Source of the DNA: a virus
IMG/VR virus record: IMGVR_UViG_3300006114_000017
Span: 1 to 45,771 of that record
Strand: one strand, 5' to 3'
Length of the DNA: 45,771 nucleotides
Both the position numbers and the translations under genes were made by a program. A model generated the notes under the pieces. It searched no databases and was not told the origin of the DNA. It worked only from the letters and a program-made list of their open reading frames with translations. Of the stretch, positions 40,595 through 45,672 are shown in pieces. Position 1 is the first letter of the stretch. Each line of letters opens with the position of its first letter.

Positions 40595-40938
40595 TGACTA
40601 AAAGTCAAACCAGTTTTGCCTGCAAGGAACGAGTGAGTGTTGCAATATGGCCTTGGCACTGAAGAATCAGACCAATGCATGTATTTTGCTTCGTACTTCT
40701 TACCTTGGCAGTCGCCATGAGCACATGCAGCCATACCCTTGCGGTCTACGTAAGGTGCTTTCCTAGTTTTCTTAGGAGGCTCTGGCTGTGGGTTCTCTGC
40801 TAAGTACTTCTGCGTGTTCTCGCAATCGGTAGTGTCTTTGCACCTACCGCTGCTAACGATTGTGTGGGTGCCATCATCTGATGCACCACAGAGCTGACAT
40901 TGGTCAGGACGAGCAGCGTAACGTTCTGACCAAGACAT
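40570..40938 (-). CDS. Small Cys-rich protein (122 aa). N-terminus MSWSERYAAR...
   Basis: ORF track. Motifs CQLCG, CKDTTDC and CAHGDC. Confidence 0.4.
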   Translation of the reverse strand: MSWSERYAARPDQCQLCGASDDGTHTIVSSGRCKDTTDCENTQKYLAENPQPEPPKKTRKAPYVDRKGMAACAHGDCQGKKYEAKYMHWSDSSVPRPYCNTHSFLAGKTGLTFSQWKDVYGR

Positions 40939-41414
40939 TAGAAGTATTTCTGTCGTTCTGACGGAGTCATCTTGCCTGATTTTGCTACAGCAGCATCGTG
41001 GCTCAGCGGTGTTGGGTTGGGGTTATGACGTCCATTGACTATTGTTTCTCCAACTGATCTAAGCAAGCTATAGTGATTGGGAATAACATTTTTGTTGAGA
41101 GCGTCAATCGCTTCATCATGTGTAGCTAGCAGTCTGGGCTCTAAAGCTTCTGGGCCACCAAGCCATGGATCATTGCGTGCACGTGCACTAACATATAAAC
41201 TGATATTGTGACCCTGGGTATAGGCATGCATCATTTCGTCTTCGGTAATACCGTGTCGCCTAGCATCATCAACATGCTTCTTTTGAATAAGCTTGGGGTT
41301 GCCTGAGTTGGCGTGATCAATCAGCTTCTCAAAGTAGTGTGGATCACCATAACCAAAGGTATCTTCAGCTGCGTATCTTCTTTTCCAATTCATTAATCTT
41401 CTCCAAGGATCCAA
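40938..41414 (-). CDS. Hypothetical protein (158 aa). Contains ...MNWKRRYAAED... near its N-terminus.
   Basis: ORF track. ATGA overlap with the downstream gene. Confidence 0.4.
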   Translation of the reverse strand: MDPWRRLMNWKRRYAAEDTFGYGDPHYFEKLIDHANSGNPKLIQKKHVDDARRHGITEDEMMHAYTQGHNISLYVSARARNDPWLGGPEALEPRLLATHDEAIDALNKNVIPNHYSLLRSVGETIVNGRHNPNPTPLSHDAAVAKSGKMTPSERQKYF

Positions 41415-41584
41415 TCGGCTACTTCTTTACTGCGTGAGTGTTCTTGTCCAATAGATGGCCCTTCTTGTCTACTCAGTTCAGAAATAATGTGTTTTTCTGC
41501 TTCAGTAGTGTTAGGGCATTGCAGTTTAGGCCAGCCATGGCATGAACAGCTTTCTGCTGCGTATCTTTTAGACCAATTACTCAT
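41393..41584 (-). CDS. Small Cys protein (63 aa). N-terminus MSNWSKRYAAESCSCH...
   Basis: ORF track. Confidence 0.35.
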   Translation of the reverse strand: MSNWSKRYAAESCSCHGWPKLQCPNTTEAEKHIISELSRQEGPSIGQEHSRSKEVADWILGED

Positions 41585-42395: not shown

Positions 42396-42412
42396 GTTTT
42401 CCTTAGTTATAT

Positions 42413-42441
42413 ATATAAGAGGATTTTTTAAATTTTGTCAA
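42413..42441 (-). promoter_or_regulatory. Sigma70-like promoter on the minus strand: TTGACA -N17- TTATAT, then an AGGAA SD, driving the acidic-protein gene
   Basis: The -35 hexamer is the reverse complement of plus 42436-42441 and the -10 of plus 42413-42418. It lies in an AT-rich 72-nt intergenic gap. Confidence 0.35.
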
Positions 42442-42467
42442 TAGATTTTAAGATAAAACTTTAAAAT

Positions 42468-43689: not shown

Positions 43690-44355
43690 TTAGCAACCAC
43701 CACGGCAAATCCATCCAGTACCGTATTCTTGACTTGGGTCCCAAACAATGTCTTGGGTGTTTCCACAGTTGTAGCAGTAGCGAGAATTGCCTGGGATGTG
43801 CCCATCCATAGGCTTATTTTCCCCCATTGAGTTATCGTTGGCGTAACGCTCAGCGAAAGAAGCACTCTTAGGCTTAAGTGGTGGCACATCGCGAACGTGC
43901 TTGTAGACTTGTGGGTCGTACTTAGTGTCTGGGTCTTGCATCATTTTCACTCTTGAATTAAGAGGAACGTTAGGATTTGTTACTTCTTTGCTAATGTTTG
44001 TCTGAGGAGCCTTGCTCTTTGTGCTTGTCTGCTCTGTGGGGAAATGCTTTTCCATAAGATCACTATAGTGTTCCACAAGGCTCTTTTGGTTAACGCCTGG
44101 TTGTGTGCGCTTCAGTACTTCTTGGTGCATCTCATTAATTTTGCCAACGCCTTGCTGGAACTTCCCAATGCTGTCCATAACGTCATTGTGGTTATTACGG
44201 ACTTCATCAACCATTCTTGCATTAGGGACGTTAGGCTTGTTCTTTTCGTATTCATCACGCGTTTGGTATCTATTCTCAGCGATTCTAATCGCCGCCATTT
44301 TTGCATTGCCAAGTGAGTTCTGGTAGCTCTTTGACCAGTCGTTGAATTGTGCCAT
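43690..44355 (-). CDS. Hypothetical protein (221 aa) with a C-terminal zinc ribbon (CYNCGNT...CRGGC). N-terminus MAQFNDWSKSYQNS. It is the first gene of the minus-strand unit.
   Basis: ORF track. Confidence 0.45.
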   Translation of the reverse strand: MAQFNDWSKSYQNSLGNAKMAAIRIAENRYQTRDEYEKNKPNVPNARMVDEVRNNHNDVMDSIGKFQQGVGKINEMHQEVLKRTQPGVNQKSLVEHYSDLMEKHFPTEQTSTKSKAPQTNISKEVTNPNVPLNSRVKMMQDPDTKYDPQVYKHVRDVPPLKPKSASFAERYANDNSMGENKPMDGHIPGNSRYCYNCGNTQDIVWDPSQEYGTGWICRGGC

Positions 44356-44908
44356 GGTGTAGCCCTTTGTAGATAGTAGAACGATTGCTATCCCCTATAC
44401 CAAGAACTATATGTATTTACATTATTCTCTCTTTTTTTCTATCTACTTTAGTGCACCTAGTATTTCATACGTGGCCAAGGCCTCCGGCATTTTTAATTCT
44501 TACCAGTACGATCTCAACGCCTGCTCTATCGAATACCCCATAGGGCTGCCCGCCATTTTTTAAAGGCGTTTCTATACGCTCCCATTGGGACCCCTATTGG
44601 CGAGCCTTACAGAGCCTTTTAGGCCCCTCTCAAGGCACTCCTCTAAAACCCTTTAGTTCTGGAAATGGCAAAACCTACCATCCTATTTCACGCCTTGGAT
44701 TGCGTGTTAGTTACACGCTAGCAAAAGATTATGAACTTCTTTGCGTCCTTGGGCACAATGTCCAAGTGAGGCTGAGAACTCATGGTCCTAGCAATCACCT
44801 GTATGTTGCTGAACTACAGCACCGTACAGCTGTGTGCGCAAACGTACTACTCAGTAGTGCGCGAACGTACGCAGCAACCCAACACCTATGCATTAGAAAG
44901 AGATTAAA
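44356..44908. promoter_or_regulatory. A 553-bp non-coding strand-switch region carrying short repeats and a dyad element
   Basis: No ORF of 60 aa or more. It separates minus-strand genes (ending at 44355) from plus-strand genes (starting at 44909). It contains CCCATAGGG / CCCATTGGG / CCCCTATTGG motifs and TGCGCAAACGTAC-TACTCAGTAG-TGCGCGAACGTAC. Confidence 0.4.
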
Positions 44909-45094
44909 ATGAAGCGTTTTCAGCTGATTTCCCTGCTCCTTGGTAGCTTTGCGTTCACGTTCGCAGTATCGTTCGTGAACACAATGATCTCGTGGTACAC
45001 ACCCATGGGGCAGGCACAGACCGTACTCACGGTCTCGTTGTCGTTCACCTTCGTGGTGTTCGTGGCTGCAGTCCTGTACACAGCCAAGAAGTAG
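44909..45094 (+). CDS. Small membrane protein with two predicted TM helices (61 aa)
   Basis: ATG at 44909 with a purine-rich AAGAGA upstream. Hydrophobic segments LISLLLGSFAFTFAVSFV and VLTVSLSFTFVVFVAAVLY. Confidence 0.4.
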   Translation: MKRFQLISLLLGSFAFTFAVSFVNTMISWYTPMGQAQTVLTVSLSFTFVVFVAAVLYTAKK

Positions 45095-45176
45095 TACGCA
45101 ATGCCGAAATCATCACGTCGGGAGATGTTGTGGTCGTCGTAGGGTGATGCCTACGGCCTGATGATGGCAGTCAGCT

Positions 45177-45224
45177 AACTAAACCAGTCCTGAGGAGGAC
45201 ACTATGAAGGAAGTAACAACGATC
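45177..45224 (+). repeat. Copy 1 of an exact 48-bp direct repeat: AACTAAACCAGTCCTGAGGAGGACACT + ATG + AAGGAAGTAACAACGATC. It covers the SD and the first 7 codons.
   Basis: Read directly from the sequence. The second copy is at 45625..45672. Confidence 0.8.
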
Positions 45225-45572
45225 GACGCTGCTAAGGCTTTGGTTGAGCACTACGCTGCTGCGGCTGAGCTCATGACTGCTGAGGCTAAGGCTGAGTACG
45301 AGGCTGCTTTGGCTGCGTACGAGGCTGTTGAGGCTAAGTACGAGGCTAAGCAGGACGCTGCTTGGGCTAAGCGTGACGCTGCTAAGGCTGAGTACTACGC
45401 TGCTCAGGCTGAGTTCAAGGCTGCCGAGGCTGAGTTCGACGATGCTTGGGCTGAGTACCACGCTGCTTTGGCTAAGTACGACGCTGCTTTGTCTAAGCCT
45501 GAGGTCAAGGCTGCTTGGGCTAAGTTCTACGCTGCTATGGCTGAGCTCAACGCTGCTCAGGCTGAGCAGTAA
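45204..45572 (+). CDS. Ala-rich acidic repeat protein (122 aa) with heptad spacing of aromatic residues
   Basis: Strong GAGGAGG SD 7 nt upstream. Extreme codon bias (Ala=GCT, Glu=GAG, Lys=AAG, Tyr=TAC). Repeats of the form AEYEAAL/AAYEAVE/AKYEAKQ. The antisense ORFs listed here are shadows. Confidence 0.55.
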   Translation: MKEVTTIDAAKALVEHYAAAAELMTAEAKAEYEAALAAYEAVEAKYEAKQDAAWAKRDAAKAEYYAAQAEFKAAEAEFDDAWAEYHAALAKYDAALSKPEVKAAWAKFYAAMAELNAAQAEQ

Positions 45573-45624: not shown

Positions 45625-45672
45625 AACTAAACCAGTCCTGAGGAGGACACTATGAAGGAAGTAACAACGATC
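45625..45672 (+). repeat. Copy 2 of the 48-bp direct repeat
   Basis: Read directly from the sequence. Confidence 0.8.

What the first reader, a model, noticed from the sequence alone, without database searches (positions are those of the whole stretch)
44356..44908. Strand-switch control region with half-palindromic CCCAT(A/T)GGG motifs and a direct-repeat/dyad/direct-repeat element
All genes below 44355 are on the minus strand and all genes above 44909 are on the plus strand, so this 553-bp gap must hold divergent early promoters and possibly an origin. Visible elements include CCCATAGGG (~44536), CCCATTGGG (~44581) and CCCCTATTGG (~44591). There are several T-runs. At about 44835-44872 lies TGCGCAAACGTAC-[TACTACTCAGTAGT]-GCGCGAACGTACGC: a 13-bp direct repeat flanking the perfect palindrome ACTACT-c-AGTAGT, 35 nt upstream of the first plus-strand ATG. 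That looks like an operator or regulator site.
Basis: seen in the sequence. Interest (0 to 1): 0.5.

Follow-up and report, generated by a model that had tools for sequence, protein, structure and literature searches.

The report
Conserved divergent control region of phage
The 553-bp gap is the shared control region between two back-to-back gene blocks of an uncultured lake phage.

Summary
The sequence features are real and sit at the stated coordinates. The window is part of a freshwater myovirus-like phage; its portal is about 39% identical to those of Mycobacterium cluster C phages.

Homologous loci from eight lineages (A-H) split the gap into two parts.

1. **44356-44741.** This is a single-copy non-coding module with invariant islands I1, I2, I4, I7 and I8. 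It persists although the flanking proteins have diverged to 22-64% identity. It is not coding, matches no Rfam family, and is not unusually structured as RNA. It is purine- and G-rich on the minus strand. The strand-composition switch falls at I1, which carries two overlapping opposite-strand -10-like hexamers in the geometry of known bidirectional promoters. I7 is a 20-bp invariant box around the palindrome GTGCAC.

2. **44742-44908.** On the plus strand this folds into three hairpins (z = -4.8, against 0.0 on the minus strand). The direct-repeat/dyad/direct-repeat is hairpin H3. Its repeat sequence occurs only in the window's own lineage.

Best reading: a divergent promoter/operator hub plus a structured 5' leader. 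A replication origin is not excluded. Nothing here is shown experimentally. Interest is moderate to low.

Noticed nearby: a type II hammerhead ribozyme candidate at 45102-45176.

The parts
43690..44355 (-). First gene of the leftward block (221 aa; N-terminal motif NDWSKSY, C-terminal Cys cluster). Function unknown.
   Evidence: ORF. No Pfam, PHROG or PDB match. Homologues of 131-200 aa in lineages B, C and D occupy the same position. The first ~50 nt of coding sequence is nearly identical at the DNA level across lineages A-D.
44387..44423 (-). Island I8. Two conserved boxes (CAATGTAAA ... TTGGTATAGG) at fixed spacing, in the proximal 5' region of the first leftward gene.
   Evidence: It stays next to the gene start when lineages D, E and F carry a ~110-nt insertion between I7 and I8. 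On the plus strand it reads as TATACC-16-TACATT in 6 of 8 lineages, and as TAGTCC-16-TACATT in F.
44444..44468 (.). Island I7. A 20-bp box, AATACT(A/T)(A/G)GTGCACTAAAGT on the minus strand, centred on the palindrome GTGCAC (44452-44457). It is flanked by back-to-back TAnnnT hexamers: TAGTAT on plus (44458-44463) and TAAAGT on minus (complement of 44445-44450). Candidate operator and/or divergent promoter core.
   Evidence: Invariant apart from the two bracketed positions in 8 lineages. Single copy in the window, with 0 expected at up to 3 mismatches. A second upstream copy is present in lineages C, E, G and H, and is partly deleted in A, B, D and F.
44489..44517 (-). The only sigma-70-type consensus match in the gap: TTGAGA-17-AAAAAT, pointing towards the 221-aa gene.
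   Evidence: An AAAAAT hexamer at the same place relative to I7, with a -35-like hexamer 17-18 nt upstream, recurs in 6 of 8 lineages. Scan totals are at chance level.
44480..44601 (.). Diverged tandem duplication (~66 bp unit) specific to the window's lineage. Each unit holds a GC-rich stem, CCG(C/G)CATTTTT, a small hairpin and a CCCAT(A/T)GGG motif.
   Evidence: Repeat family D7 and alignments A1 and A2. Other lineages hold one unit.
44614..44660 (-). Islands I4 (GAGAGGGGCCTAAA.GG, 44614-44631) and I3 (44640-44660, a degenerate copy of I7). They form part of a run of G-clusters on the minus strand.
   Evidence: Every lineage has 4-8 G-runs against 1-3 C-runs in the block, and GC skew of +0.10 to +0.27 in minus orientation.
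44669..44696 (-). Island I2: AAGGCGT(G/A)AAATAGGATGGTAGGTTTT.
   Evidence: 0-4 mismatches in six of the eight lineages and 6 of 28 in the E/G/H group. The I1-to-I2 start distance is exactly 45 nt in all 8 lineages although the spacer sequence varies.
44723..44741 (.). Island I1: AAGAAGTT(C/G)ATAA(T/C)CTTT on the minus strand. It carries overlapping -10-like hexamers on opposite strands: GATTAT on plus (44727-44732) and CATAAT on minus (complement of 44728-44733). Candidate bidirectional core promoter and the point where the two transcription directions part.
   Evidence: Invariant except at 2-3 positions in 8 lineages. Positions 2 and 6 of the two hexamers pair with each other, as in the 18-bp class of bidirectional promoters. 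The purine-loading switch of the window lies at about 44750.
44743..44772 (+). Hairpin H1 of the rightward leader.
   Evidence: -16.5 kcal/mol, z = -2.96 on plus against -1.44 on minus. Other lineages also have a stable hairpin starting within a few nt of I1.
44799..44829 (+). Hairpin H2 (UGUAUG.UGCUG-AACUA-CAGCA.CGUACA), built around the conserved CTACAGCACC.
   Evidence: It is shared with lineages C and F: 94% of cells pair, 2 pairs change on both sides, and several change between G.U and Watson-Crick pairs. Slid controls reach at most 58% paired. With three sequences the shuffle control is uninformative.
44829..44875 (+). It has a 10-bp lower stem, a 4x4 internal loop (CAAA/CGAA), an 8-bp upper stem and a UCA loop, with 3 G.U pairs. 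Each 'direct repeat' unit is GUGCG-CRAA-CGUAC, whose ends are wobble-complementary, so the repeat follows from the stem design.
   Evidence: -27.1 kcal/mol, 93% of the ensemble, z = -4.28 on plus; -18.4 kcal/mol, z = -0.48 on minus. The 14-nt repeat occurs only in lineage A. Long interrupted hairpins occupy the equivalent place in lineages F and D.
44909..45094 (+). First gene of the rightward block (61 aa; two hydrophobic segments).
   Evidence: A homologue in lineage C follows the same leader.

Best explanation
The gap is the common control region of two divergently transcribed gene blocks of an uncultured freshwater phage.

**Left part, 44356-44741.** This is a clade-specific, single-copy, non-coding module. 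It acts at the DNA level as a cluster of promoter and regulator sites, and it is probably transcribed leftward as a long purine-rich leader. I propose these roles:
- I1 is the divergence point. It holds two overlapping -10-like hexamers on opposite strands, which would start transcripts about 18 bp apart in the two directions.
- I7 is a 20-bp invariant box with a palindromic core between two back-to-back TAnnnT hexamers. It is the best candidate for an operator, for a second promoter pair, or for both.
- TTGAGA-17-AAAAAT (44517-44489) is a further leftward promoter candidate.

**Right part, 44742-44908.** This is the 5' leader of the rightward transcript. It folds into three stable hairpins. 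It is an RNA element most likely used for leader stability or endonucleolytic processing, in the way RNase III-type interrupted hairpins work.

**Shown here**
- Conservation of the islands, their single-copy status and their fixed spacing.
- Absence of a coding signature.
- Absence of Rfam matches and of unusual RNA stability in the module.
- Strand-specific folding of the leader.

**Inferred**
- That any of these sites is a promoter or operator.
- The transcription start positions.
- Any RNase cleavage.
- That the flanking genes are 'early'.
For: **Relatives.** Eight lineages were recovered through flanking proteins and DNA patterns, and all share the divergent layout and a large gap.

**Conservation.**
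- The islands are nearly invariant, while the adjacent 371-aa family protein is only 22-64% identical and the first gene is sometimes replaced.
- Each island is single copy in the window and in the related loci.
- The I1-to-I2 distance is fixed at 45 nt in all 8 lineages.

**Not coding.** The frame open across I2 and I1 has a stop in lineage D and no conserved start. Of the 15 codons spanning the two islands, eight vary between lineages and only one of those changes is synonymous; none of the six codons spanning I1 changes synonymously.

**Not a known or strongly folded RNA.** There is no Rfam match even at E<=10. Block folding z-scores lie mostly between -1.6 and +1.2 on both strands; the exceptions are B on the minus strand (-2.6) and G on the plus strand (-4.1).

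**Composition.**
- The block is purine-rich in minus orientation: 0.57-0.65 of bases in 7 of 8 lineages and 0.53 in D.
- The window's plus-strand purine fraction rises from 0.46 or below to 0.50 or above at about 44750, next to I1.

**Promoter geometry.** The I1 hexamer arrangement equals the 18-bp bidirectional class described in bioRxiv 10.1101/2020.01.31.928960.

**Leader.**
- It folds at z = -4.81 on plus and -0.04 on minus.
- The same asymmetry appears in lineages B, C and F.
- H2 is kept through compensatory changes in lineages C and F.
- A hammerhead candidate directly after the first rightward gene suggests the rightward RNA is made and processed.
Against: - No transcription start data exist.
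- Sigma-70 consensus scans give counts at chance level: 1 found against 1.8 expected in the local region, and 30 against 33 over 20 kb.
- No clear -35 partner is conserved for I1 or I7.
- Lineages B and F carry G:C at the one base pair shared by both I1 hexamers (GGTTAT / CATAAC). That should weaken both directions.
- The predicted start bases next to I1 are pyrimidines.
- Invariance over 19-28 nt is more than RNA polymerase alone needs, so other, unidentified binding partners must be assumed.
- Part of the conservation may simply reflect recent recombination of this module between lineages. The distribution of the I7 copy-1 deletion conflicts with the protein identities.
- The H3 sequence is lineage-specific, and the H2 covariation rests on three sequences.
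Confidence: 0.5

Rival explanations
1. The conserved module is, or contains, the phage replication origin. It could be transcription-primed: a promoter-like box, followed by G-clusters on the non-template strand that favour a persistent RNA-DNA hybrid, followed by A/T-rich DNA that opens easily.
For: - The module is a single-copy cis element conserved far beyond what promoters need.
- It is G-rich on one strand in all 8 lineages, with 4-8 G-runs.
- An A/T-rich stretch lies next to I7 at about 44411-44443.
- The cumulative GC-skew minimum of the window falls at 44950-45100, just right of the gap, and gene direction diverges there.
- Tandem I7 copies in lineages C, E, G and H recall the paired promoters at the T7 primary origin (from my own knowledge of T7, not tested here).
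Against: - No replication gene was identified nearby.
- The skew switch is equally explained by transcription direction. The skew also changes sign at about 16 kb without any change of gene strand.
- No regular iteron array is present.
- This rival is not exclusive of the promoter reading.
Confidence: 0.17
2. The module is a non-coding RNA gene, or a functional long leader read leftward. Examples would be a G-rich regulatory RNA or an attenuator containing the short upstream reading frame that starts at the invariant ATG inside I2.
For: - Purine and G loading in minus orientation is present in all lineages.
- An invariant ATG with SD-like purines lies in I2, followed by 7-28 variable codons (inspection of the sequences).
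- Lineages D and E have a GC hairpin followed by TTTT just before I7.
- Relatives D, E and F do carry a clear small-RNA-like cassette in this region, with promoter, hairpins and terminator on the plus strand.
Against: - No Rfam match.
- The RNAalifold consensus is weak, at -13 kcal/mol with a positive covariation term.
- Folding z-scores are not significant in most lineages.
- The hairpin in the I1-I2 spacer is not kept between lineages E and G.
- The T-run after the GC hairpin is missing in lineages A, B, C, G and H.
Confidence: 0.15
3. One reading: the direct-repeat/dyad/direct-repeat at 44834-44872 is a double-stranded DNA operator or iteron pair bound by a phage regulator that controls the first rightward gene.
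For: - The two 14-nt copies are 23 bp apart (about two helical turns) with a dyad between them, 37 nt upstream of the ATG.
- The 13-mer GTACTACTCAGTA recurs in lineage D at the -10/start region of a promoter-like site.
Against: - The repeat unit is absent from every other lineage.
- The symmetry is imperfect as DNA but complete as RNA through 3 G.U pairs, and only on the plus strand.
- Lineages F and D have different sequences that form the same kind of long interrupted hairpin.
Confidence: 0.1
4. Part of the gap encodes small proteins: the 41-aa ORF at 44782-44907 (called as a gene in some public contigs) or the 70-aa TTG ORF at 44700-44912, which overlaps the next start as ATGA.
For: - Both frames are open in the window.
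- The 41-aa ORF is called in JGI and ENA contigs.
- A TTG or GTG sits at the same spot in 7 of 8 lineages.
Against: - The 41-aa product is not conserved in lineages C or F beyond three residues.
- Gene callers disagree between identical contigs.
- The long frame has a stop at the start position in lineage D and ends after 19-23 codons in lineages B and E-H.
- Nearly all its changes are non-synonymous.
- No SD precedes the TTG.
Confidence: 0.04

Closest known systems
Bacterial bidirectional promoters with overlapping -10 elements (18-bp class; Warman et al., bioRxiv 10.1101/2020.01.31.928960)
   Same: I1 has -10-like hexamers on both strands offset by one base, so that position 2 of one pairs with position 6 of the other. 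It sits exactly where the two gene directions and the strand composition diverge.
   Different: No start sites are mapped. Two lineages have G:C at the shared key pair. The invariant stretch (19 nt) is much longer than a -10 pair. The host polymerase is unknown.
Phage T7 early region: tandem host-polymerase promoters followed by RNase III processing hairpins such as R0.3 and R1.1 (from my own knowledge)
   Same: Several promoter-like boxes are followed by a leader containing a long hairpin with two stems separated by an internal loop (H3), just upstream of the first small gene.
   Different: There is no sequence similarity, cleavage is untested, H3 is lineage-specific, and the region here serves two directions.
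Divergent promoter/operator regions such as Tn10 tetA-tetR or lambda OR (from my own knowledge)
   Same: A palindrome-centred invariant box (I7) lies between opposed -10-like hexamers in a gap between divergent genes.
   Different: No repressor gene is identified. The palindrome is short (6-12 bp), and its full copy is single in lineages A, B, D and F. The phage shows no sign of lysogeny functions in the window.
T4-type PeSL cassettes: promoter plus stem-loop units that flank shuffled early genes (Arbiol, Comeau and Krisch 2010; from my own knowledge)
   Same: Conserved non-coding and 5'-gene cassettes are shared between lineages whose gene bodies differ. Examples are the 48-nt repeat at 45177 and 45625, the shared first codons, and a module phylogeny that conflicts with the gene phylogeny.
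   Different: The 390-bp module is single copy per genome rather than dispersed.
Transcription-primed origins (T7 primary origin, T4 oriF/oriG, ColE1; from my own knowledge)
   Same: Promoter-like boxes are followed by G-clusters and then A/T-rich DNA, all within a unique conserved cis element.
   Different: No functional or positional link to replication genes was found, and no origin test is possible with these tools.

Membership tests
Sigma-70-type promoter | TTGACA-like and TATAAT-like hexamers 16-18 bp apart, found more often than chance | tested here: inconclusive
   There is one match in the gap (TTGAGA-17-AAAAAT, 44517-44489). Counts equal the shuffle expectation. Relaxed candidates recur at fixed positions relative to I1, I7 and I8 in 5-7 of 8 lineages.
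Bidirectional promoter, 18-bp class | -10 elements on opposite strands overlapping so that positions 2 and 6 pair with each other | tested here: inconclusive
   Met in the window and in lineages C, D, E, G and H (GATTAT over CATAAT or GATAAT). Not met in lineages B and F (GGTTAT over CATAAC or GATAAC).
Bidirectional promoter, 18-bp class | Divergent primary 5' ends about 18 bp apart | not testable with these tools
   This needs 5'-end mapping.
Palindromic operator | Dyad symmetry conserved among relatives | tested here: met
   This holds for I7. GTGCAC is invariant in 8 lineages, and TTAGTGCACTAA is a perfect 12-bp palindrome in lineages G and H.
Palindromic operator | Conservation of the flagged direct-repeat/dyad/direct-repeat among relatives | tested here: not met
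   The 14-nt unit is found only in lineage A. The dyad 13-mer recurs once, in lineage D, at another place and on the other strand.
Palindromic operator | A cognate DNA-binding regulator | not tested
   Flanking proteins have no Pfam, PHROG or PDB assignment.
Intrinsic terminator | GC-rich hairpin immediately followed by a U-run | tested here: not met
   H3 is followed by AACCCAACACC, and no terminator-like site was scored in 44356-44908.
RNase III-type processing hairpin | About 20 bp of interrupted double-stranded RNA with an internal loop, located in a leader or intercistronic RNA | tested here: met
   H3 has 10 + 8 bp around a 4x4 loop and is specific to the plus strand. This tests geometry only.
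RNase III-type processing hairpin | Cleavage by RNase III | not testable with these tools
   This needs an in vitro cleavage assay or in vivo 5'/3' end mapping.
Any Rfam RNA family | Covariance-model match | tested here: not met
   There is no match at gathering score. At E<=10 on 44300-44960 the only hit is a chance snoRNA hit at 14.5 bits.
Iteron-type replication origin | Three or more regularly spaced direct repeats, an A/T-rich unwinding element, and an adjacent initiator gene | tested here: not met
   There are only two copies of the repeat and they are lineage-specific. An A/T-rich stretch is present. No initiator gene was recognised.
Protein-coding gene | Open frame conserved in relatives, with mainly synonymous change | tested here: not met
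   (see the rival explanations).
Hammerhead ribozyme type II (for 45102-45176, outside the finding) | CUGAUGA and GAAA cores, a GUC cleavage site, three stems, and a score above the Rfam threshold | tested here: inconclusive
   The cores are present. The score is 31.5 bits against a gathering score of 37, with E = 2.6e-4 in a local search. Sister copies in relatives score 27.9-36.7 bits. The five copies align with invariant cores, and 7 pairs change on both sides.

The most novel reading that the evidence does not exclude
The 390-bp module would be a previously undescribed clade-specific cis element of freshwater actinophage-like myoviruses, doing more than promoting transcription. The most interesting version is a transcription-primed (R-loop) replication origin, or an origin-plus-early-promoter hub. 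In that version the hub also serves as the homologous 'linker' through which these phages swap their hypervariable early genes.
Probability: 0.2. Interest if true: 0.55.

Novelty: new member of a known kind. Interest (0 to 1): 0.35.

Why it matters
Almost nothing is known about how large phages of uncultured freshwater bacteria start their infection programme. This locus offers a compact, conserved set of candidate start signals that can be tested directly:
- I1, I7 and I8 as candidate promoter or operator sites.
- A structured leader on the rightward transcript.
- A neighbouring self-cleaving ribozyme.

Mapping bog-lake metatranscriptomes to the contig, or in vitro transcription, would test them. 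The locus also shows that the repeat a reader spots by eye can be the least conserved element, while the functionally constrained DNA lies beside it. If the module turned out to be an origin or a recombination linker, it would help explain the mosaic early regions of these phages.

Tried and rejected
- **Similarity to isolated phages.** None at the DNA level in either megablast or blastn mode. The 221-aa protein has no tblastn hit.
- **IMG/VR scans** with the 221-aa protein, the exact dyad, I2 and the conserved N-terminal coding 24-mer found nothing.
- **Metagenome scan with I2.** It returned the known lineages plus five high-GC chance hits, L024-L027 and L029.
- **GTDB genome scan with the I7 core.** It gave 12 chance hits with no other island nearby.
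- **Known RNA families.** None.
- **Structured-RNA reading of the module.** Rejected on a weak RNAalifold consensus and non-significant z-scores.
- **Coding reading.** Rejected.
- **T7/T3/SP6-type promoter reading of I7** (it shares CACTAAAG with the T3 promoter). Set aside because I7 is single copy in 45.8 kb and no single-subunit polymerase was seen among the large ORFs. It is not formally excluded, because the rest of the genome is not in the window.
- **Physical genome end.** Two lineage-G contigs start at the same base, 269 nt beyond I1. I attributed this to assembly breaks where the hypervariable rightward genes begin, because the same sequence is internal in lineage E.
- **DnaA-box and Bacteroidetes-type promoter motifs.** Checked by eye only; none is conserved.
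- **Population variation.** The near-identical copies L001-L012 are 99.95-100% identical to the window and gave no information.

Full report
**What the window is.** The window carries phage genes: a portal, a major head protein and a large virion protein by PHROG, plus five tRNAs. Nearly all genes are on the minus strand up to 44355. The portal is about 39% identical to portals of Mycobacterium cluster C myoviruses and of Gordonia and Rhodococcus phages. GC content is about 46%. Proteins identical to the window's flanking genes occur in contigs from JGI and ENA metagenome samples. From their accession series I take these to be humic-lake samples, but I did not check this. An actinobacterial host is an inference from the portal similarity. 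No isolated phage shares DNA similarity with the region.

**The observation.** The one correction is that the palindrome ACTACTcAGTAGT (44845-44857) overlaps the two 14-nt repeat copies (44834-44847 and 44857-44870) rather than lying between them.

**Relatives.** I recovered eight lineages:
- A is the window plus the near-identical L001-L012.
- B is L013-L016.
- C is L017.
- D is L018-L023.
- E is L031 and L040.
- F is L032-L034.
- G is L039 and L043.
- H is L044.

They came from homologues of the 221-aa protein, from the better-conserved 371-aa neighbour and from a DNA pattern scan. All eight have the same layout: a leftward block that starts with a variable first gene followed by the 371-458-aa family, a large gap, and a rightward string of small variable genes.

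**The conserved module (44356-44741).**
- Aligning the gaps shows that most of the left two thirds is conserved as nearly invariant islands, which I call I1-I8. In contrast, the 371-aa family is only 22-64% identical, and the first gene is replaced in lineages E-H.
- Each island occurs once per locus.
- The start-to-start distance from I1 to I2 is 45 nt in all eight lineages, although the intervening sequence differs.
- The module does not code for protein. The only frame open across I2 and I1 has a stop in lineage D and no conserved start. Of the 15 codons spanning the two islands, eight vary between lineages and only one of those changes is synonymous.
- It matches no Rfam family.
- It has only a weak consensus fold. 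It is not unusually stable as RNA on either strand in most lineages.
- It is purine- and G-rich in minus orientation in every lineage. In the window this loading ends at about 44750, immediately right of I1.
- The window's lineage carries a diverged ~66-bp internal duplication (44480-44601), which explains the two CCCAT(A/T)GGG motifs. The conserved core there is the palindrome GGG(A/T)CCC.
- The distribution of a partial deletion of the upstream I7 copy (shared by A, B, D and F) conflicts with the protein identities (A closest to C and F). The module has therefore been exchanged between lineages.

**Candidate signals in the module.**
- I1 contains GATTAT on the plus strand and CATAAT on the minus strand, offset so that positions 2 and 6 of the two hexamers pair. 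This is the arrangement reported for the commonest class of bacterial bidirectional promoters.
- I7 is a 20-bp invariant box with GTGCAC at its centre and opposed TAnnnT hexamers at its sides.
- I8 has two boxes at promoter-like spacing.
- The scan tool's only hit is TTGAGA-17-AAAAAT at 44517-44489, and a similar site recurs in six lineages.
- None of this is proof. Consensus scans are at chance level, lineages B and F have a damaging substitution in I1, and -35 partners are weak.
- The clade does use canonical signals. Lineages D, E and F carry, between I7 and I8, a plus-strand cassette with TTGACT-16-TATACT (or close variants), two hairpins and a strong terminator.

**The leader (44742-44908) and the flagged element.**
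- On the plus strand this segment folds at -59.4 kcal/mol, z = -4.81, with 0 of 200 shuffles as good. On the minus strand z is -0.04.
- It forms three hairpins.
- H3 (44829-44875) is the direct-repeat/dyad/direct-repeat. It has a 10-bp lower stem, a 4x4 internal loop, an 8-bp upper stem and three G.U pairs.
- Each repeat unit is GUGCG-CRAA-CGUAC with wobble-complementary ends, so the 'direct repeat' follows from the stem design.
- The repeat sequence is unique to lineage A. Lineages F and D have other long interrupted hairpins at the same place, and lineages B, C and F show the same plus-over-minus folding asymmetry.
- H2 is shared with lineages C and F and is kept through compensatory and wobble changes, though three sequences give little statistical weight.
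- I therefore read the flagged element as an RNA hairpin of the rightward leader. It resembles RNase III-type processing or stability hairpins in geometry only; cleavage is untested.

**Verdict.** This is a real, conserved control region of a familiar kind: a divergent promoter/operator hub with a structured leader. A clade-specific module within it has binding partners that remain unknown. The origin reading (confidence about 0.17) and a leftward regulatory-RNA reading (about 0.15) remain open and are not exclusive of the main reading.

Noticed in passing
window 45102-45176 (+); also L007 7323-7385 and 9190-9252, L017 3731-3793, L018 2697-2771: Type II hammerhead ribozyme candidates sit in the gaps between the small rightward genes. 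The window copy scores 31.5 bits against an Rfam threshold of 37, with E = 2.6e-4 in a local search. The five copies share the CGAAA / GUC / CUGAYGA cores, and 7 pairs change on both sides. Hammerheads flanking genes in phage transcripts are already described (PMC3088659).
   Followed up: partly
window 45177-45224 and 45625-45672: A 48-nt exact repeat covers a small hairpin that encloses the GGAGG ribosome-binding site plus the first 7 codons (MKEVTTI) of two different genes. The 17-mer ATGAAGGAAGTAACAAC starts rightward genes in lineages A-D as well. This looks like a shared 5' cassette on otherwise unrelated genes. The window ends just after the second copy, probably at an assembly break.
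   Followed up: partly
window 45204-45572 (+): A 122-aa alanine-rich acidic protein is built from ~21-nt (7-residue) repeats (AxAEYxAA...). A similar protein lies beside the module in lineage E (L031 6706-7107). Function unknown.
   Followed up: no
L018 3540-3660, L031 5650-5775 (-), L032 12730-12855 (-): Lineages D, E and F carry an insertion between I7 and I8. On the plus strand it reads as a promoter (TTGACT-16-TATACT or close variants), two hairpins and a strong intrinsic terminator. This would be a ~90-nt candidate antisense small RNA opposite the 5' region of the first leftward gene. It is absent from the window.
   Followed up: partly
window 43690-44355, 41393-41584, 40938-41414; L032 11934-12650: Several leftward proteins begin with, or contain, the same short motif NWxKRYA(S/A)E. 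In L032 it occurs twice in one protein. The first ~50 coding nt of the 221-aa gene are nearly identical in DNA across lineages A-D, while the rest of the protein is 31-67% identical.
   Followed up: no
L007 7724-7793 (+) and L017 5211-5280 (-): A tRNA-like gene lies in the rightward block, just beyond the window end. Rfam scores it as tRNA at 57-58 bits, but ARAGORN reports it without a normal anticodon ('tRNA-???').
   Followed up: no
window 42396-42467 (-): An A/T-rich gap upstream of the 130-aa acidic protein gene holds a near-consensus TTGACA-N17/18-TATATA. The scan tool misses it because of its position-6 rule.
   Followed up: no
L039 and L043 position 1; L013-L016, L018-L019 and L032 contig ends; window end: Many independent contigs of these phages end 0.3-3.3 kb beyond I1 on the rightward side, and two lineage-G contigs start at the identical base. 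This is probably strain-level hypervariability and repeats in the rightward genes breaking assemblies, not a physical genome end.
   Followed up: partly
window 44844-44856 (+) and L018 3631-3643: The 13-mer GTACTACTCAGTA of the window's dyad recurs in lineage D on the opposite strand, at the -10/start region of the inserted cassette's promoter. Chance is roughly 0.02 for the regions compared. Its meaning is unknown.
   Followed up: no
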